From sequence record NC_135728.1: 64,000 nucleotides of DNA. The stretch is one strand, 5' to 3'. The notes beneath the pieces were generated by a model that saw only the letters and a program-made list of their open reading frames with translations, did no database searches and was not told the origin of the DNA. Made by a program: the position numbers and the translations under genes. Each line of letters opens with the position of its first letter. Position 1 is the stretch's first letter. Shown in pieces: positions 45,086 to 51,850 of the stretch. Origin of the DNA: a phage.

Positions 45086-45997
45086 TTATTTTCCGTTAAC
45101 TTTGTCGTAGTTTCCCTGCTCTGACGGAACTATAGTGGAAGGTCTTCCATATTCCTGATAGTACCAATCGGCAGCGGACTGGGTAACACCGTTTTCATCT
45201 GTCCACATCATAGACTTGTATGGCTGCCACTCTTCTGCAGCATTTGTGGATGCAGTGTCTGCAAATGCCCCTGTATCTCTCTTGTTACCTACATTACTAC
45301 CATTCTTACAATCGTTGACAGCACCTTTTTGCTGGGTCTTCCCAACTTTTTTAGGATTGCTGTACACTGTTGCATTAACAACTTTGTTCAAGTAAAATGT
45401 GCGGAATTCTGTAAGTTCTACATCAAACACCATTGCAGCTCCTTCACCAACAGACTTGTTGGCAGAAAGGCTGGTTATGATATAGTTCTCAAGGAGTCTC
45501 TCCTCGGTAACCAAGGAAACCAACTGTCGCTTATTGATAATCTCAGTCAAAGCCTCCAATGCAGCTCCTGGTCTCATAGATGCTGCAGGGTTTTTAGAGT
45601 CAGTATTCCTATCAATGTAGTTTTGCTCATAAATTATATGTGGGGATGTATTTACCCTGCCAGTAAAAGAAAATACACCATCTTTAATTACAGCGTGGTC
45701 TGACATGGTAGATTTATCTTCCACTGCAAAACCAGTTTTATCAACAGAATGTTTGAAAGAATAGTTCTCAACCTGGTCGAAGATAATGGCAAGATCGTTA
45801 GTAAAGTTTTTACCCTTCATCTCCGTATTGCGACCACCATAGTTAAGACCGCTGACAAACATAGTGTACTTTACATCACCTTCAGTTTGCTGCTCAGCCT
45901 TTTCAGCCTTTGGAGACTTAACCTCTTGAGGCTTGTACAGATCTTTTTCATCAACTATATTATTTGGCATAACCTCTCCAGGACACTCCGATACCAT
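45086..45997 (-). CDS. tail protein (303 aa)
   Basis: Immediately downstream of the tape measure gene; an alternative start with GGAGAGG RBS lies near 45970. Confidence 0.45.
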   Translation of the reverse strand: MVSECPGEVMPNNIVDEKDLYKPQEVKSPKAEKAEQQTEGDVKYTMFVSGLNYGGRNTEMKGKNFTNDLAIIFDQVENYSFKHSVDKTGFAVEDKSTMSDHAVIKDGVFSFTGRVNTSPHIIYEQNYIDRNTDSKNPAASMRPGAALEALTEIINKRQLVSLVTEERLLENYIITSLSANKSVGEGAAMVFDVELTEFRTFYLNKVVNATVYSNPKKVGKTQQKGAVNDCKNGSNVGNKRDTGAFADTASTNAAEEWQPYKSMMWTDENGVTQSAADWYYQEYGRPSTIVPSEQGNYDKVNGK

Positions 45998-46074: not shown

Positions 46075-48414
46075 TTACCAAAGATCTGTTGACATAAAGT
46101 TAATATCTTTGCTATTCTCCCACTCAAGTTTTGCATCAAGTATTTTGCTAAACTCACCTTCATCTATAGAAATGGTGATTTTACCATCGCTGATCTCCAA
46201 AGGTAACATTTCCATGGTTCTCAGTTGAGAGGCAAAACCAGGGCCACCAGGTAGCGGAAGGGTTCCACCAGGTAAAGTGTCTAGAGGATTAACAAACCCG
46301 TTGCCACCCGATACTATATCTTTGCGGATCATGTCACTAATAGTATCCAGCTGTTGATTTCTCTCACTGAAAGGGTTGAAACGATCATTAACCATAGCCC
46401 CAGCACTCAATAATGTCCCAAGTATCCCCAACTTACCTAACATACCGGTACCTTTGATGCCTGGTGCTTTTATTCCACCACCTTTTCCTGCTGCGCCACC
46501 TACAGAACCCCCTGTGGTGATGGCACCAGCGCCAGCAGCTCCAGCTGCACCTTTCAGGGTGCTAAGGAACTTAAAAGTTTTTACAAGCATGGATGCCATG
46601 ACAAACCCTTTTGTAAGAGCGTGCACTACCAGCATAATGGCAGCAGCATACCCTGCCCATTTGGCAGTGCTGAAGGTGTCATGCAGCTCTTCGGAATACT
46701 CCTTCGTCTTAGCTGTTATGAACCCCCATTTGATGCCCCACTCAAGGAAAAACAGGCGGATCTTAACTATAGTGTTGTTTAGCTCACCAACAACCCAGTT
46801 AAGGCCTCTAATAAATCCGCTAACAAAATCACCTGAGGCATCCCACACAAATTGCAGAGTCTCACCTGTGCGGATCAAGGTGTAGTAGAACTCTGTCAAT
46901 TCATCTGCCCAACGGGTGAACAGTTTCTGACGAGACAGTTCTATGAAGGTTTTCAGTCTGTTTTCTGCCAGTACGTTAGACTTCTGCATTCTTTCATAAC
47001 CAGCTGCAGATGCCTCGTTCATGTACTTAGCCACATACTTCATGATCTTAGCTGTTTTAACCTCACCTTTCTTCATCATATCCATGAACTGATCCATGGA
47101 GAGTTCAGAAAGACCAAAAGCCTCTTTGGTGGCCTTGATAAAAGGTTCGTATGCACCAGGTAATGCTTCAGCAAGTTGTTGCTTCAGTTCTTCGGACATT
47201 ACTTGTCCCTTGCCTAGCATCTGTTGGATTGCCATGATACCACGCTGGTATTTTACCTCATCGGCACCATAAGCAGCAGCATACTGGGAGTATGCAGAGA
47301 ACAGCTCATGAACCTCCTGATTTGTCATCTGGTTTTTGGCGTTTACCGCCATCTGGGCGTAACCTTGAAGACCAGATTTGAGATCAAAACCAAGACGCAT
47401 AGCCTCTTGCTGGACAAACGCAACCTCACTGTTGGCTTTGTTTGGATCTCCAGTAACAGCAGTAAGAGCAGCACTTGCACCCTCCATCATGTGACCGGAT
47501 CTGTTAACAGCAGTAAATCCAGAAAAAGCCGTATACGCAGCTGTTGCATTAATAACAGATCTACGTAAGTCTCTCATGGCATCGCCTAGTGTAAGCGTTT
47601 GGTTGGTGGCGCTTTTAAACCCAGACTGCAGCGCTGACAGGTGGGCGTTAAAGGTTGACTTCTTCATCTCCCCGCGAGCAAACCTGGACTCTAACTCTGA
47701 GTATCCTGGCAAGCTTCCACGGAATCCGGCCCCATACTTGGCAGAAAGTCTTATCGCGGAGTTGTAGAGGTGGGTTCTCCTTGCCTCACGATCCGACATA
47801 AGCTTATTATCCATACCAGCTTTACTGTCTCTTCTTAGCTGTCTATGATAACGATTCATAGCGGCTGTCTGAGCTTTCACAAGGTTAGGGTCGGAAGCCA
47901 CACCACCCATATTAGGGTTACCGGGGATATATTTGAAAGATTTGGCATTAGCCAAAACTCTTGCCTTAGGTGCCTTATAACCACCGTAAGACACTGGTGC
48001 AGATTTGGCAGCCTTTTTGGCCTCTTTAGCTTGCTGCTGGTAGAACTTACGCATCCTAGCCATTTCTGGATTTTTAGCGGTAAGATTACCTACAGCTTGT
48101 TTACGTCTCGCATTCTCCCTACGTTCTATTGCAGCCCTTACTGCAGCCTCTTTCTTGGCCTGTGCTACGCTCTCTCTGTGCAGTTTAGCATTTGCCTGAG
48201 ATTGCTGTCTGGCAACCCTCTGCATTGTCTGCTGGGTTTTAACAGCTACCGCCTGCCATCTACTCATGGGGTTGGCTGAGTTAAAATCCTCGCCCAGTTT
48301 CCTGAACTCCCTCCCAATACTGCGAATTTTCTCTACAGCTTTTTTGTAGGAGGAGTTCTCTATCTCAAAGCCAATCTTGTTGACTGTTGTGGCAACTATT
48401 TTGTTTGTAGCCAT
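46075..48414 (-). CDS. tail tape measure protein (779 aa)
   Basis: Long helical, Ala/Gln/Lys-rich protein with C-terminal Gly-rich hydrophobic segment (GAAGAAGAGAITTGGSVGGAAGKGGG); sits after the tail chaperones. Confidence 0.7.
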   Translation of the reverse strand: MATNKIVATTVNKIGFEIENSSYKKAVEKIRSIGREFRKLGEDFNSANPMSRWQAVAVKTQQTMQRVARQQSQANAKLHRESVAQAKKEAAVRAAIERRENARRKQAVGNLTAKNPEMARMRKFYQQQAKEAKKAAKSAPVSYGGYKAPKARVLANAKSFKYIPGNPNMGGVASDPNLVKAQTAAMNRYHRQLRRDSKAGMDNKLMSDREARRTHLYNSAIRLSAKYGAGFRGSLPGYSELESRFARGEMKKSTFNAHLSALQSGFKSATNQTLTLGDAMRDLRRSVINATAAYTAFSGFTAVNRSGHMMEGASAALTAVTGDPNKANSEVAFVQQEAMRLGFDLKSGLQGYAQMAVNAKNQMTNQEVHELFSAYSQYAAAYGADEVKYQRGIMAIQQMLGKGQVMSEELKQQLAEALPGAYEPFIKATKEAFGLSELSMDQFMDMMKKGEVKTAKIMKYVAKYMNEASAAGYERMQKSNVLAENRLKTFIELSRQKLFTRWADELTEFYYTLIRTGETLQFVWDASGDFVSGFIRGLNWVVGELNNTIVKIRLFFLEWGIKWGFITAKTKEYSEELHDTFSTAKWAGYAAAIMLVVHALTKGFVMASMLVKTFKFLSTLKGAAGAAGAGAITTGGSVGGAAGKGGGIKAPGIKGTGMLGKLGILGTLLSAGAMVNDRFNPFSERNQQLDTISDMIRKDIVSGGNGFVNPLDTLPGGTLPLPGGPGFASQLRTMEMLPLEISDGKITISIDEGEFSKILDAKLEWENSKDINFMSTDLW

Positions 48415-48468
48415 GGTTTCCTCATAATAAAAAGGGCCAGATCCCAGAAAAGGAATCCGGCCCTTAGA

Positions 48469-48717
48469 TTATCCTCTCCTGCGCTTAGCTTTCGCAGCAG
48501 CTGCGGCAGCCTTCTGCTCCCGCTCCATTTCCCTGTTTTGGACGGTATCTAGGAATTCTTCGATATCAAGATACTCACAGAGCTTCAGGAAATACGCCAT
48601 ATCTGCAAGATTTAGCGATTCAAAATTTTCCCCTTTGAAATTCTTGAGCACTCTGCACCAAAGAAAGTCGAACCAGTTGAGTGAACTGTTCTTGGCTGCC
48701 CACTCACTGGCCCTCAC
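48469..48717 (-). CDS. tail assembly chaperone, -1 frame extension ORF (T part of G-T)
   Basis: Lies in the -1 frame relative to 48729-49202 and is open back to the slippery site; GTG is only the first in-frame start in the track. Confidence 0.45.
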   Translation of the reverse strand: MRASEWAAKNSSLNWFDFLWCRVLKNFKGENFESLNLADMAYFLKLCEYLDIEEFLDTVQNREMEREQKAAAAAAKAKRRRG

Positions 48718-48728
48718 AACAACCTTGC

Positions 48729-49202
48729 TTATTCCTGCTCTTCCGGAGTCTGATCCAGGTTGTTCACCTGCTGAATCATACCCATCTGCTGTAACATCTC
48801 CAGAAGGCTTCCTAAACCGTCTTGTGTGAAAAAACAGCCGTAGTTAACCTCCAGAACCTTACCTGCCAGCTTAATCATCTCCAGCAGATGCCCTGCAAAC
48901 ACAACATCTGGGTTAAGCTTATCCACACCATCTACGGTAATATCTTCGAACAAGATTTTAAATAACTCTTCAATAGAGCTATCATCAAGTTCTTGGAACA
49001 GGTAAGCCAGGGCAGTAGGAAGGACCTCTGCCATATTCTGACCGCCTGAGATAATAGATCCACCGATAGCACCTAGCGGAACAGCCACAATCTTACCGAT
49101 TTTAGGCATGTTTTTCATTGCTTTCATCGGTCCCCAGTGGGTGATCACAAAGTTGTGCCCTGCTAAATCAATCTCTGTTGTAGGTCTAAAGTTTATAGCC
49201 AT
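48729..49202 (-). CDS. tail assembly chaperone (G-like, 157 aa)
   Basis: Position between tube-like and tape measure genes; contains the heptamer T_TTT_TTC about 35 codons before its stop. Confidence 0.55.
   Translation of the reverse strand: MAINFRPTTEIDLAGHNFVITHWGPMKAMKNMPKIGKIVAVPLGAIGGSIISGGQNMAEVLPTALAYLFQELDDSSIEELFKILFEDITVDGVDKLNPDVVFAGHLLEMIKLAGKVLEVNYGCFFTQDGLGSLLEMLQQMGMIQQVNNLDQTPEEQE
48828..48834 (-). other. candidate -1 programmed ribosomal frameshift site (U_UUU_UUC)
   Basis: In-frame slippery heptamer in the chaperone ORF; the -1 frame is open from here through 48469. Confidence 0.45.
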
Positions 49203-49245
49203 TTTATAGCATCCTTATTAGTCATGTTGTGCACCATATTTGTGT

Positions 49246-49274
49246 ATTTTACCATGATTATGGTGCATTGTCAA
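49246..49274 (-). promoter_or_regulatory. sigma70-like promoter with extended -10 (TTGACA-N14-TGGTAAAATA)
   Basis: Consensus -35, 17-bp spacer and TGGTAAAATA, upstream of the chaperone and tape measure genes. Confidence 0.55.
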
Positions 49275-49310
49275 TTTAACCTTTCAAGCAATTCAAGAAC
49301 GTGTGTCAAA

Positions 49311-49347
49311 ACCATAAAAAGCAAAAAGCCCCACCCTAAGGTGAGGC
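49311..49347 (-). terminator. intrinsic terminator after the tube-like gene
   Basis: 8-bp GC-rich stem (GCCUCACC/GGUGGGGC) with 4-nt loop, then CUUUUUGCUUUUUAUGG. Confidence 0.6.
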
Positions 49348-49365
49348 TTATGCTAAAGTGTGCCC

Positions 49366-49839
49366 TTAGATAATACCTGCAAGACCTGCGAGGCCAGTGA
49401 GAGCACCAGTAATGTTATCACGGTTGAGCCATGCATCCAGAATACCGATATCCCAGTCCAGTTGACCTACTTCGGTTCCGTAAGTCAGGTCTGGTTGTTT
49501 CTGGATCCAACCGATTGTGGAAATACCAGGGCCCTGGCTACCTTCCAGCAGAACCGGGAAGAATACCAGGCCAGTAATCGATGCCTGTTTCTGCCAGTCA
49601 GAGAGGTAAGCGTTCCATACTGAAGTGTTCTGCAAAGACACAGTCATGACACCAGATTGGTTACGGGACAGAGCCGCAGACATTTCACCATCCACACCGA
49701 CGTGAGGATAAATGTTGTCTTCGTTTCTTGAAACAACAATCTTGGTGTCAGCAGCGAAGCCAGTGACACGCTGCTGCATCAGATACAGTTTGACCTTTTT
49801 AGGGTCATACGCATAAGGAGTTAAAATTTGAGTTTCCAT
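49366..49839 (-). CDS. tail tube protein (putative, 157 aa)
   Basis: Size and position between sheath-like and chaperone genes; no sequence motif verified. Confidence 0.4.
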   Translation of the reverse strand: METQILTPYAYDPKKVKLYLMQQRVTGFAADTKIVVSRNEDNIYPHVGVDGEMSAALSRNQSGVMTVSLQNTSVWNAYLSDWQKQASITGLVFFPVLLEGSQGPGISTIGWIQKQPDLTYGTEVGQLDWDIGILDAWLNRDNITGALTGLAGLAGII

Positions 49840-49849
49840 CTAGGCTTCC

Positions 49850-51226
49850 TTATTCAGTCATTGCAACAGCATTGGTGGATTTAGAACCAACTTTGTCCAG
49901 AAGGACGTTGATCCGGATACGAACGAAGTGCAGGGCGTTATTATACACCAGTTCTACTTTCACACCTTCCAGAACACGAGCAGCCAACTGATTGGTTGGG
50001 ATTTCTGCACGTTTAGGAACTGTGATGATCGGGTCGTAGAATACATTATTGTCTTCGTCGAAACCTGTCAGGATCGCACCATTCTTAATGCCAGTGTTGA
50101 TTGGGTTGTTCATCAGGACAGACTTGATAACCGGAAGATCATCATCAGACATCTTCATGCTCAGACCCATATTAGATCGGCGATGCATGTATCCAAACAT
50201 AGACTCTTCGGATCTGAATTTAATCCAGTGGGCGAAGCGGATAGCATCTGCATACTGACCAGAAGCACATTTACCTTCCCAGAAAGCACCAACACCGTTG
50301 ATTGTTCTGTAGAAGTTAATGTTGTTCTCCCAAATCGCCATGCGCTGGGTCAAGGTCAGGGATGGTGCAAGAACACCAGGCATCTGTTTTAAGTGTAAGC
50401 TGTCGCCGTAGGACGGATCGTTGGATGCCATAGCACCGATAATACCGCCCTCTGGGAAGTCTTTGTCGGCGCGAGGGTCGTACATACCAATACTGTCATA
50501 TTTTGCAGCTTTCAGTTTAGTGGCAATGTTGCTGTCTTTGCCAGTCACATCTTCTGCAGTAGAGTAGACATGCAGTTTGTAGTTAGCCTGAGCCCACTTA
50601 GCACATGCTTCAATATCTGTGTGGTCTTCATGGCACAAGAAGTACCAATTATCCTGCTCAGCGTTGATCTTGTCGATCACGGTAGAAGGTTTTTCACTAT
50701 TGGCAATGTTTTTGATCGTATAATTACCAGTATGATAACCAACAGTACAATCACCAGTGATGGTGATAACACCTTCGTCTGCCTGCACGGTGATACCGTC
50801 TAAGCTATCATCAGCCTCAATTTTTTCCTTCATTGCCTCTGCGATCTGAGTTGCCCCTGTTCCACCAGAGATAGGGACTATCAAGGCAGTATTGTAGTCA
50901 CCTTTTGCAATAGTCATTACGACATCGGTATCAGCTGCGGCAGCAATACCTTTAAAATCTACAGTGGTCTTTTCTTTGGCCTGTCTGCCGATCATAACGT
51001 ATTGTGGAGGGAATACACCACCAAAAGCTTTTGCTGCAAACTCATACGCTGCAGAGCCTTGTGCGAAACCATCTTCCACCATCTGATCCAGCTCCGCATA
51101 TACGCGAGCTCGCTCAGTAAAGTTATTGTGGATAGCGATGAACAGGGGAGTTTCGAAACCTACAGTGTCAATAGGCTGGGTTCCGAGGTTAACTGTAACA
51201 TCTACCACTTTATCTAAATATGGCAT
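49850..51226 (-). CDS. tail sheath protein (putative; alternatively major tail protein, 458 aa)
   Basis: Size, position after neck proteins, codon usage of a highly expressed gene; call is positional. Confidence 0.45.
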   Translation of the reverse strand: MPYLDKVVDVTVNLGTQPIDTVGFETPLFIAIHNNFTERARVYAELDQMVEDGFAQGSAAYEFAAKAFGGVFPPQYVMIGRQAKEKTTVDFKGIAAAADTDVVMTIAKGDYNTALIVPISGGTGATQIAEAMKEKIEADDSLDGITVQADEGVITITGDCTVGYHTGNYTIKNIANSEKPSTVIDKINAEQDNWYFLCHEDHTDIEACAKWAQANYKLHVYSTAEDVTGKDSNIATKLKAAKYDSIGMYDPRADKDFPEGGIIGAMASNDPSYGDSLHLKQMPGVLAPSLTLTQRMAIWENNINFYRTINGVGAFWEGKCASGQYADAIRFAHWIKFRSEESMFGYMHRRSNMGLSMKMSDDDLPVIKSVLMNNPINTGIKNGAILTGFDEDNNVFYDPIITVPKRAEIPTNQLAARVLEGVKVELVYNNALHFVRIRINVLLDKVGSKSTNAVAMTE

Positions 51227-51298: not shown

Positions 51299-51850
51299 TT
51301 ACTGACCACTGTCTGTAACCGCTTTACCAGAATTGGGTGAAGGGAAGTGTGTGGTTATTTCAGCCTTAATTCCCTGAAGATCCTCAAAAGCCCCAATGTC
51401 TGTTTCAACAAACCTTACGTTAAATGTCAGCATCACAGTGGCTCTATTTTCATACGTCTGCTTATTCAACGGCACTCTTTGAGGTGAGATTGTTGAATTG
51501 TTAGAGTAGGCAAAGCACGATCCCAGAGGGAAATACTTGTCATAAAACATTGGAAGGTTTATTGCTTGCAATACTCTGCTAAGTGCAGCATATGCCCTGC
51601 CACGATAAGCTGTTAATAGATAAGTAACAGTGTAGCTGTGGGTGACGTAAGCATTACCCTCCGCATCTTGAAATTCATTATCTTCCCAAGTGGTGGGATT
51701 GATCGCTAAGGTTTGTAAAAGTACAAACTCACCTTCCGGCTTCGGTATGGTAGAGCTTTCTGCCAGAACTACAGTTCTTCCTGTGGCAACCTTGACGAGC
51801 TTAGCAATGGTTGTTTCAAGATCAGAAAAAACTTTTTCGAAAGCTTCCAT
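51299..51850 (-). CDS. head-tail joining/tail completion protein (183 aa)
   Basis: Positional call. Confidence 0.4.
   Translation of the reverse strand: MEAFEKVFSDLETTIAKLVKVATGRTVVLAESSTIPKPEGEFVLLQTLAINPTTWEDNEFQDAEGNAYVTHSYTVTYLLTAYRGRAYAALSRVLQAINLPMFYDKYFPLGSCFAYSNNSTISPQRVPLNKQTYENRATVMLTFNVRFVETDIGAFEDLQGIKAEITTHFPSPNSGKAVTDSGQ

What the first reader, a model, noticed from the sequence alone, without database searches (positions are those of the whole stretch)
48469..49202. Candidate -1 programmed frameshift in the tail assembly chaperone (G/GT arrangement)
The chaperone ORF 48729-49202 contains the in-frame slippery heptamer U_UUU_UUC (48834-48828, minus sense) about 35 codons before its stop. 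The -1 frame is open from that site through the downstream 48469-48717 ORF, so a -1 slip would give a C-terminally extended product. This is the conserved arrangement between tube and tape measure genes in tailed phages.
Basis: partly seen in the sequence, partly recalled or inferred. Interest (0 to 1): 0.45.

Follow-up and report, generated by a model that had tools for sequence, protein, structure and literature searches.

The report
Unannotated tail-chaperone frameshift in rV5-like phage
This rV5-like coliphage almost certainly makes a short and a long tail assembly chaperone from one gene by a -1 ribosomal slip on UUUUUUC; the trick is a textbook one, but public records of this phage group do not annotate it.

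Summary
T_TTT_TTC (48834-48828, minus strand) lies in X_XXY_YYZ phase at codons Cys123-Phe124-Phe125 of the 157-aa tail assembly chaperone (48729-49202; Pfam Phage_TAC_15). The -1 frame is closed by a TAA three codons upstream. From the heptamer it stays open through the 82-aa ORF to the stop at 48469, which predicts a 244-aa fusion.

The window is a Vequintavirus (98.7% identical to Escherichia phage vB_EcoM-Pr121LW). The gene order is sheath, tube, chaperone, small ORF, tape measure.

Comparative evidence is strong. All 47 relatives examined, down to 28% protein identity, have an in-phase slippery heptamer and an uninterrupted -1 frame: 46 have TTTTTTC and one has GGGAAAG. The three synonymous positions that make the heptamer never vary in 42 unique sequences. 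The small ORF has no conserved start codon. In two genera, 44 conserved codons contain no ATG, GTG or TTG, yet they evolve like coding sequence.

No downstream RNA structure was found. An SD-like GGAGG lies 13 nt upstream.

I conclude that this is a genuine G/GT-type -1 programmed frameshift. It is a new member of a well-known kind and has no experimental proof. Its main value is correcting annotation. Interest is low to moderate.

The parts
48729..49202 (-). Tail assembly chaperone short form (G-like, TAC-N), 157 aa, stop TAA at 48731-48729
   Evidence: Translation. Pfam Phage_TAC_15 at 3.3e-23. PHROG 3840 'tail assembly chaperone' at 6.5e-69.
48828..48834 (-). Slippery heptamer T_TTT_TTC (U_UUU_UUC) in X_XXY_YYZ phase: third base of Cys123, then Phe124 TTT and Phe125 TTC
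   Evidence: In 42 unique relative sequences the preceding wobble base is always T, Phe1 is always TTT and Phe2 is always TTC. Present in 46 of 47 relatives; the other has GGGAAAG.
48469..48828 (-). The -1 frame segment of the predicted long form (GT-like, TAC-NC): 119 codons plus a TAA stop. Base 48828 is read twice. The full product is complement(join(48469..48828,48828..49202)) = 125 + 119 = 244 aa.
   Evidence: One search shows an uninterrupted translation. Searches show the same arrangement in all relatives.
48732..48827 (-). Dual-coding overlap. The 0 frame encodes the 32-aa G-specific C-terminal tail. The -1 frame encodes a Gly/Ser/Pro/Asp-rich linker that starts with a conserved R-F-R motif.
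   Evidence: A low-confidence AF2 model shows no secondary structure for residues 1-32 of the -1 segment.
48469..48717 (-). The 82-aa ORF annotated in GenBank as a separate 'hypothetical protein' (GTG start). It is interpreted here as the conserved C-terminal T-like domain of the long form.
   Evidence: PHROG 10409, unknown function, at 1.9e-51. The start codon is not conserved. Substitutions fall 219:174:654 by codon position in this frame.
48844..48846 (-). TAA stop that closes the -1 frame three codons upstream of the heptamer
   Evidence: In relatives the -1 frame is closed within 3-14 codons upstream of the TTTTTTC heptamer.
48848..48852 (-). SD-like GGAGG, 13 nt 5' of the heptamer. Candidate upstream stimulator; this is an inference.
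   Evidence: A GGAGG, GGAG or GAGG lies 13-14 nt upstream in 20 of 28 unique contexts. It is absent in the Certrevirus (L009, L015, L026) and related unassigned loci (W70, L028, L030) and in most Mydovirus-like sequences.
46075..48414 (-). Tape measure protein (779 aa), the presumed client of the chaperone pair
   Evidence: Pfam TMP_3 at 9e-19. PHROG 5255 at E = 0.
49366..49839 (-). Tail tube protein (157 aa), upstream neighbour
   Evidence: Pfam KPP10_Orf10 at 7.2e-9. Annotated as 'tail tube protein' in phage RudolfGeigy. rV5 gp52 was identified as the tube protein by mass spectrometry (PMC3606486).

Best explanation
The chaperone gene is decoded in two ways.

Most ribosomes read frame 0 and finish at the TAA at 48731-48729, giving the 157-aa short chaperone. 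A minority slip back one base. This happens when tRNA-Phe in the P site (UUU, 48833-31) and tRNA-Phe in the A site (UUC, 48830-28) re-pair with UUU and UUU at 48834-29. Those ribosomes then read CAC at 48828-26 and continue in the -1 frame. The product is a 244-aa long form: G residues 1-125, a roughly 35-residue flexible linker, and the conserved roughly 80-residue domain now annotated as a separate 82-aa protein.

By analogy with lambda gpG/gpGT, the long form would bind the tape measure protein through its C-terminal domain. The abundant short form would coat the tape measure, and the slip frequency would set the ratio of the two.

Shown here: the sequence anatomy, its conservation, and the lack of an independent start in relatives. 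Inferred: that slippage actually occurs, how efficient it is, any role of the upstream GGAGG, and the division of labour between the two forms.
For: (1) Phase, uniqueness and frame topology of the heptamer.

(2) The gene is a tail assembly chaperone placed between the tube and tape measure genes.

(3) All 12 GenBank relatives from Seuna-, Henuna-, Mydo-, Avuna- and Certrevirus, Phapecocta- and Justusliebigvirus, Aeromonas Plateaulakevirus and Rheinheimera Barbavirus (28-55% aa identity) and all 35 IMG/VR loci have an in-phase slippery heptamer. In each, the -1 frame is open to the end of the downstream ORF or, in one truncated locus, to the end of the contig. Barbavirus has the lambda-type G_GGA_AAG instead, which is a functional replacement.

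(4) In 42 unique sequences the codon before the Phe pair is TGT, CCT or AGT. That is three different amino acids, always ending in T. Phe1 is TTT in 42 of 42 and Phe2 is TTC in 42 of 42, against 181 TTT to 172 TTC elsewhere in these genes. Neighbouring wobble sites vary.

(5) There is no conserved start codon for the downstream ORF. GenBank records start it at five or more different places or leave the region unannotated. Gene callers in metagenomes give lengths of 43-102 aa. In L006 and L019, 44 conserved codons have no ATG, GTG or TTG, yet differences among 8 lineages fall 219:174:654 at codon positions 1:2:3.

(6) U_UU.U_UU.C belongs to the most efficient E. coli heptamer class, H_HH.U_UU.Y. 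The A-site hierarchy is A_AA.G >> U_UU.C > U_UU.U (PMC4066793).

(7) A conserved poly-T -1 frameshift has been argued on the same grounds for the chaperones of the related Vandenendeviridae and Andersonviridae (PMC12846349).
Against: There is no experimental evidence: no trans-frame peptide and no reporter assay. The rV5 proteomics paper does not mention these proteins.

No downstream stimulatory structure was found. Fold z-scores were -0.71 and +0.93, the consensus structure energy was -0.25 kcal/mol with no covariation, and there was no Rfam hit.

In this genus the downstream ORF does have a GTG with a weak AAGG 5 nt upstream. Some independent initiation therefore cannot be excluded in this particular phage.

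The relatives are not phylogenetically independent, and the IMG/VR search pattern was anchored on the F-F peptide, though not on its codons. No natural in-frame G-T fusion was found.
Confidence: 0.88

Rival explanations
1. There are two independent genes. The 82-aa ORF is translated on its own from GTG 48717, and the heptamer is a by-product of a conserved Phe-Phe dipeptide.
For: GTG at 48717 has an AAGG 5 nt upstream. All 18 GenBank records read annotate separate CDSs or nothing. Phe124 and Phe125 are nearly invariant at the protein level.
Against: The start is not conserved. In most relatives the first usable start lies inside the conserved domain, and in L006 and L019 there is none in 44 conserved codons that show a 219:174:654 codon-position pattern. 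A conserved dipeptide does not explain invariant wobble bases across three different preceding amino acids. Nor does it explain an uninterrupted 18-34-codon overlap in 47 of 47 relatives, or the substitution by GGGAAAG in Barbavirus.
Confidence: 0.05
2. Transcriptional slippage: RNA polymerase slips on the T6 run and makes a minority of mRNAs lacking one U, which encode the fusion in a single frame.
For: The site is a homopolymeric run of six. Slippage on A/T runs is a known alternative route to two products (review PMC5009743, listed; own knowledge).
Against: Efficient slippage by bacterial RNA polymerase generally needs runs of about 8-9 or more (own knowledge). The run is held at exactly T6 followed by C in 42 of 42 sequences rather than lengthening to T7. 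Barbavirus has GGGAAAG, which has no long homopolymer but is a classic ribosomal site. The conserved phase fits tRNA re-pairing.
Confidence: 0.04
3. The signal is a decayed relic. The heptamer and open frame are inherited from an ancestor, but shifting in this phage is negligible, and the T domain is supplied by independent initiation or is dispensable.
For: No stimulatory structure was found. This genus alone has a plausible own start for the ORF.
Against: The signal is intact, and the T domain is under purifying selection throughout the subfamily. Lambda G/GT also works without a downstream structure (own knowledge of Levin et al. 1993). An SD-like GGAGG sits at a spacing compatible with stimulation.
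Confidence: 0.03

Closest known systems
Phage lambda gpG/gpGT tail assembly chaperones, and the conserved frameshift described by Xu, Hendrix and Duda 2004 (Mol Cell 16:11; cited in PMC8785237)
   Same: Two overlapping ORFs lie between the tail tube gene and the tape measure gene. [quoted passage not shown] A -1 slip gives a C-terminally extended minor product. No downstream RNA structure is required.
   Different: The heptamer is U_UUU_UUC, not G_GGA_AAG. The slip occurs 32 codons before the G stop, so one fifth of G is specific to the short form, whereas in lambda only a few codons are. There is no detectable sequence similarity to lambda G or T. The host virus is a large lytic myovirus.
Proposed -1 frameshift at the invariant GTTTTT motif in the tail assembly chaperone locus of Vandenendeviridae (Pseudomonas phage Adele and other Pakpunavirus) and Andersonviridae (PMC12846349)
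   Same: The phage families are related, with the same virion architecture and synteny. The slip motif is poly-T at the 3' end of TAC-N. The downstream ORF is routinely mis-annotated as a hypothetical protein. The -1 frame is uninterrupted across divergent genomes. The argument is purely comparative.
   Different: That paper tested its own two families and did not test Vequintavirinae or Stephanstirmvirinae. I did not compare the chaperone sequences of those families with this one directly.
Phage P2 E/E+E' and Mu-type myovirus chaperone frameshifts (own knowledge; Christie et al. 2002)
   Same: The context is a contractile-tail phage. The gene order is sheath, tube, chaperone with a -1 frameshift, then tape measure. 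The slip site is T-rich (P2 uses TTTTTTG).
   Different: No sequence relationship was tested here. P2 shifts very near the end of E.
E. coli dnaX -1 frameshift signal (own knowledge; Larsen et al. 1994)
   Same: An SD-like element lies about 10-14 nt upstream of the heptamer and could act as a stimulator. Here it is GGAGG at 13 nt.
   Different: dnaX also has a strong downstream hairpin, and its shift yields a shorter product. Here the SD-like element is only partly conserved (20 of 28 contexts) and is untested.

Membership tests
G/GT-type programmed -1 frameshift of tail assembly chaperones (Xu et al. 2004) | The first ORF is a tail assembly chaperone | tested here: met
   Pfam PF21822 Phage_TAC_15 at 3.3e-23, 83 bits against a 22-bit cutoff. 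PHROG 3840 at 6.5e-69.
G/GT-type programmed -1 frameshift of tail assembly chaperones (Xu et al. 2004) | The ORF pair lies between the major tail (tube) gene and the tape measure gene, on the same strand | tested here: met
   Tube at 49366-49839, G at 48729-49202, T ORF at 48469-48717 and tape measure at 46075-48414, all on the minus strand.
G/GT-type programmed -1 frameshift of tail assembly chaperones (Xu et al. 2004) | A canonical slippery heptamer in X_XXY_YYZ phase lies within the stretch where both frames are open | tested here: met
   T_TTT_TTC at 48834-48828. It is the only such heptamer in the gene, and the -1 frame opens three codons upstream.
G/GT-type programmed -1 frameshift of tail assembly chaperones (Xu et al. 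2004) | The second ORF is in the -1 frame and continuous with the slip site | tested here: met
   119 uninterrupted codons from 48828 to the stop at 48469.
G/GT-type programmed -1 frameshift of tail assembly chaperones (Xu et al. 2004) | The slip site and frame arrangement are conserved among diverged relatives | tested here: met
   47 of 47 relatives. The wobble positions are invariant. One relative has a functional replacement by GGGAAAG.
G/GT-type programmed -1 frameshift of tail assembly chaperones (Xu et al. 2004) | The downstream ORF lacks its own conserved translation start | tested here: met
   The window itself, however, has a GTG with a weak AAGG.
G/GT-type programmed -1 frameshift of tail assembly chaperones (Xu et al. 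2004) | Two proteins, a short form and a fusion, are actually produced at a fixed ratio, and both are needed for tail assembly | not testable with these tools
   This needs mass spectrometry, a western blot, a reporter assay or genetics. The rV5 proteome paper gives no data on these proteins.
G/GT-type programmed -1 frameshift of tail assembly chaperones (Xu et al. 2004) | The C-terminal (T) domain binds the tape measure protein | not testable with these tools
   The AF2 model of the -1 segment has low confidence (pLDDT 51; four predicted helices after an unstructured 32 residues). There is no Pfam, NCBIfam or PDB relative.
Frameshift signals with a downstream stimulatory RNA structure (IS3 or coronavirus type) | A stable, conserved hairpin or pseudoknot 5-9 nt 3' of the heptamer | tested here: not met
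   z = -0.71 for 105 nt and +0.93 for 58 nt. RNAalifold gave -0.25 kcal/mol, 4 pairs and no compensatory changes. No Rfam hit.

The most novel reading that the evidence does not exclude
The U_UUU_UUC chaperone frameshift may be an ancient signal that needs no RNA structure, shared by the whole supergroup of large lytic myoviruses (Vequintavirinae, Stephanstirmvirinae, Plateaulakevirus, and probably Andersonviridae and Vandenendeviridae). In many lineages its efficiency would be tuned by an SD-like GGAGG 13 nt upstream. The conserved 20-34-residue tail specific to the short form would give that form a function the long form lacks. In rV5-like phages specifically, the chaperone pair has additionally become its own small transcription unit, with a terminator, a near-consensus promoter overlapped by a 9-bp inverted repeat, and a second terminator. 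That would allow chaperone dosage to be controlled separately from the tube and tape measure genes.
Probability: 0.25. Interest if true: 0.4.

Novelty: new member of a known kind. Interest (0 to 1): 0.22.

Why it matters
The main value is for annotation. Several hundred deposited genomes carry this locus as two unrelated genes, as a truncated 'hypothetical protein', or as an empty 300-nt gap: 490 records match the chaperone and 279 match the downstream domain. Many of these phages are being developed for therapy or biocontrol. In none of the 18 records read, and in none of the 60 sampled rows, is the downstream region labelled as part of the chaperone.

Recognising the 244-aa long form gives the correct protein for structural and assembly studies of rV5, phi92 and phiTE-type tails. 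The phiTE cryo-EM paper does not mention a chaperone at all. It also gives frameshift-prediction tools a clean family with a conserved U_UUU_UUC site and no stimulatory structure.

It does not change our understanding of frameshifting or of tail assembly.

Tried and rejected
- Downstream stimulatory structure. I folded 105 nt and 58 nt of the window and ran RNAalifold on 12 diverged sequences. Nothing exceeded shuffled controls and there was no covariation. An apparent CGAAA...TTTCG hairpin in PVP-SE1-like sequences is not conserved in the window or in Certrevirus. The conserved CGGTTTCG block is explained by dual coding (G-F-G/A in frame 0, R-F-R in frame -1).
- Rfam scan of 48300-49500 at E <= 1. 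Only chance-level hits.
- Natural in-frame G-T fusions as independent support. The word-indexed search gave 3 hits of 80-82 aa. The exhaustive phmmer search gave 17 hits. Twelve are short ORFs of 43-102 aa. Five are long proteins; the three I scanned are DUF285/LRR repeat proteins that match by repeat periodicity. No fusion was found.
- Structure of the long form. The -1 segment with a 4-sequence alignment gave pLDDT 51, too poor for a fold search, so none was run.
- PDB sequence search with the chaperone profile and NCBIfam. Nothing significant.
- Literature. I found no statement of a frameshift in rV5, phi92, PVP-SE1 or phiTE in the papers I could search. Vladimirov et al. 2022 (Virology) is not held.
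- Other slip sites. There is no other in-phase X_XXY_YYZ heptamer in the gene. In Stephanstirmvirinae an overlapping C_CCT_TTT precedes T_TTT_TTC. It is absent from the window.

Full report
**What the window is.** The 5.3 kb around the finding is 98.7% identical to Escherichia phage vB_EcoM-Pr121LW and 94-96% identical to more than 100 other rV5-like phages of genus Vequintavirus. On the minus strand the genes run in this order:
- neck or tail terminator-like protein (51299-51850)
- sheath (49850-51226)
- tube (49366-49839)
- a 157-aa protein (48729-49202)
- an 82-aa ORF (48469-48717)
- tape measure protein (46075-48414)
- a Dit-like protein (45086-45997)

The 157-aa protein is a tail assembly chaperone. 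It matches Pfam Phage_TAC_15 at 3.3e-23 and PHROG 3840 at 6.5e-69. The 82-aa ORF matches only PHROG 10409, a family of unknown function.

**Checking the observation.** On the minus strand the codons are GGC TGT TTT TTC ACA. T_TTT_TTC (48834-48828) is therefore in X_XXY_YYZ phase, covering the last base of Cys123, then Phe124 and Phe125. The -1 frame read from 48828 runs for 119 codons through the 82-aa ORF to the TAA at 48471-48469. A -1 slip would give a product of 125 + 119 = 244 aa.

This is the only in-phase heptamer in the gene. The -1 frame is closed by a TAA (48846-48844) just three codons upstream, so the heptamer sits at the very start of the stretch where a shift would be productive.

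As a control I scanned every ORF of at least 120 aa in the window. There are 58 in-phase heptamers in 22,210 codons. Only this one, in a real gene, gives a -1 extension past the 0-frame stop; the two other candidates are antisense shadow ORFs. From this one sequence alone, the chance of a heptamer falling in the 38-codon overlap is about 0.1. That is suggestive only.

**Comparative evidence.** tblastn found the chaperone in 490 phage records and the downstream domain in 279. I read 12 diverged loci with 28-55% chaperone identity:
- Salmonella phage PVP-SE1
- Erwinia phage pEa_SNUABM_55
- Klebsiella phage K54_rec2
- Escherichia phage 18-1-2
- Escherichia phage W70
- Cronobacter phage PBES 02
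- Pantoea phage F5M2A
- Escherichia phage phAPEC8
- two phi92-like phages
- Aeromonas phage phiA009
- Rheinheimera phage Barba5A

I also read 35 IMG/VR loci. In all 47 an in-phase slippery heptamer is followed by a -1 frame of 93-128 codons (101 in one locus cut off by its contig end) that stays open to the end of the downstream ORF. The -1 frame is closed 3-14 codons upstream of the TTTTTTC heptamer. Forty-six loci have TTTTTTC. [quoted passage not shown]

In 42 unique sequences the codon before the Phe pair is TGT, CCT or AGT. These encode three different amino acids and all end in T. Phe1 is always TTT and Phe2 is always TTC. Elsewhere in the same genes Phe is 181 TTT to 172 TTC, and the neighbouring wobble sites (TAC/TAT, GGC/GGA/GGT) vary.

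One caveat applies. The sequences are related to one another, and the IMG/VR pattern was anchored on the F-F peptide. It was not anchored on codon choice.

**The downstream ORF is not an independent gene in relatives.** Aligning the -1 products shows a variable Gly/Ser/Pro-rich linker followed by a conserved domain (...SKVVxRAxxYAxKNSSLxWFDYLWCRxLKxFKGE...LxxADMxYLLKLxEYLD...). No start codon is conserved upstream of this domain.

GenBank records start the ORF at different places, giving products of 43-88 aa, or leave the region empty, as in Hena1 and muut. Metagenome gene calls range from 43 to 102 aa.

In L006 (a Mydovirus-like Klebsiella phage) and L019 (Henunavirus-like) the 44 conserved codons before the ADM methionine contain no ATG, GTG or TTG. 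Yet differences among eight lineages fall 219:174:654 at codon positions 1:2:3. That is the signature of a translated, constrained frame. Ribosomes can only reach it from the chaperone gene by changing frame.

In the window itself a GTG with a weak AAGG exists. Some independent initiation therefore cannot be excluded for this genus.

**Mechanism.** The best explanation is a tandem -1 slip of the two tRNA-Phe on U_UUU_UUC. In E. coli, U_UU.U_UU.C belongs to the most efficient heptamer class (H_HH.U_UU.Y). The A-site hierarchy is A_AA.G >> U_UU.C > U_UU.U, which fits the invariant final C (PMC4066793).

No downstream stimulator exists. Fold z-scores were -0.71 and +0.93. There is no conserved structure and no covariation, and no Rfam match. 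The conserved CGGTTTCG block after the site is explained by dual coding: G-F-G/A in frame 0 and R-F-R in frame -1.

An SD-like GGAGG (48852-48848) lies 13 nt upstream. A GGAGG, GGAG or GAGG is present at 13-14 nt in 20 of 28 unique contexts. It could act as the dnaX upstream element does, but that is an inference.

Because the slip is 32 codons before the stop, the short form has a tail of its own, which is moderately conserved. The same nucleotides encode the linker of the long form.

Transcriptional slippage is unlikely. The run is held at T6 followed by C, and Barbavirus uses GGGAAAG.

**Comparison with what is known.** This is the arrangement described by Xu, Hendrix and Duda (2004) for lambda G/GT and many other phages. 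A 2025 paper argues for the same poly-T frameshift in the related Vandenendeviridae and Andersonviridae, on the same kind of evidence (PMC12846349).

I found no statement of it for rV5, PVP-SE1, phi92 or phiTE. None of the 18 GenBank records I read carries a joined CDS. I therefore class it as a new member of a known kind.

**What could not be established.** The following remain open:
- whether the long form is made at all
- how often the shift occurs
- whether the GGAGG matters
- what the T domain binds

The AF2 model of the -1 segment was too poor to use (pLDDT 51). No in-frame G-T fusion exists among homologues.

**Verdict.** Novelty is low (interest 0.22). The practical value is in correcting the annotation of several hundred phage genomes.

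Noticed in passing
window 49228-49349 (minus strand), between the tube and chaperone genes: In rV5-like phages the chaperone pair looks like its own transcription unit. A terminator-like hairpin (49349-49326) follows the tube gene. Then comes a near-consensus sigma-70 promoter, TTGACA-17-TAAAAT with an extended-10 TG (49274-49246, 11 of 12 positions). A perfect 9-bp inverted repeat, TATGGTGCA/TGCACCATA (49267-49259 and 49238-49230), brackets the -10 region and the likely transcription start, like an operator. This roughly 100-nt insert is conserved in 5 close relatives, with one arm mismatch in L016. It is absent from the Seuna-, Mydo-, Avuna-, Certre-, Phapecocta- and Justusliebigvirus loci checked.
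   Followed up: partly
window 48432-48465 (minus strand): A strong terminator-like hairpin (14 pairs, followed by a T run) lies between the stop of the -1 frame ORF and the tape measure start codon. It is also annotated as a terminator in phage Murica. It would separate or attenuate transcription between the chaperone and its client.
   Followed up: no
GenBank MG0656xx records, e.g. MG065635.1 and MG065652.1: About 20 records named 'Campylobacter phage', with Campylobacter jejuni given as host, are 94-100% identical to E. coli rV5-like or phi92-like phages across this locus. They are unannotated. The host labels are probably wrong, or the samples contaminated.
   Followed up: no
L012 (Rheinheimera phage Barba5A) 1330-1617 and 1632-2270: Barbavirus uses G_GGA_AAG instead of T_TTT_TTC at the chaperone slip site. 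It also has an oppositely oriented 'putative DNA binding protein' gene inserted between the chaperone pair and the tape measure gene.
   Followed up: partly
L010, L013, L014, L033 and L036-L050 (Stephanstirmvirinae-like loci): These phages have CCCTTTTTTC, which holds two overlapping in-phase heptamers (C_CCT_TTT and T_TTT_TTC). Both lead into the same -1 frame, so the slip site may be compound.
   Followed up: no
P0010, P0012 and P0013 (hits): Long DUF285/LRR repeat proteins (737-1269 aa) match residues of about 46-88 of the -1 segment several times each, at E = 1e-4 to 1e-6. This is most likely repeat periodicity rather than homology. P0013 also weakly touches Pfam 'Pre_tape_measure' (PF23789), below its cutoff.
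   Followed up: partly
L004 (Salmonella phage PVP-SE1) 1486-1752: The RefSeq CDS for the downstream ORF appears to start at an Ile codon, not at ATG, GTG or TTG. I worked this out by hand from the coordinates and the translation. It shows how annotators forced a start onto this ORF.
   Followed up: no
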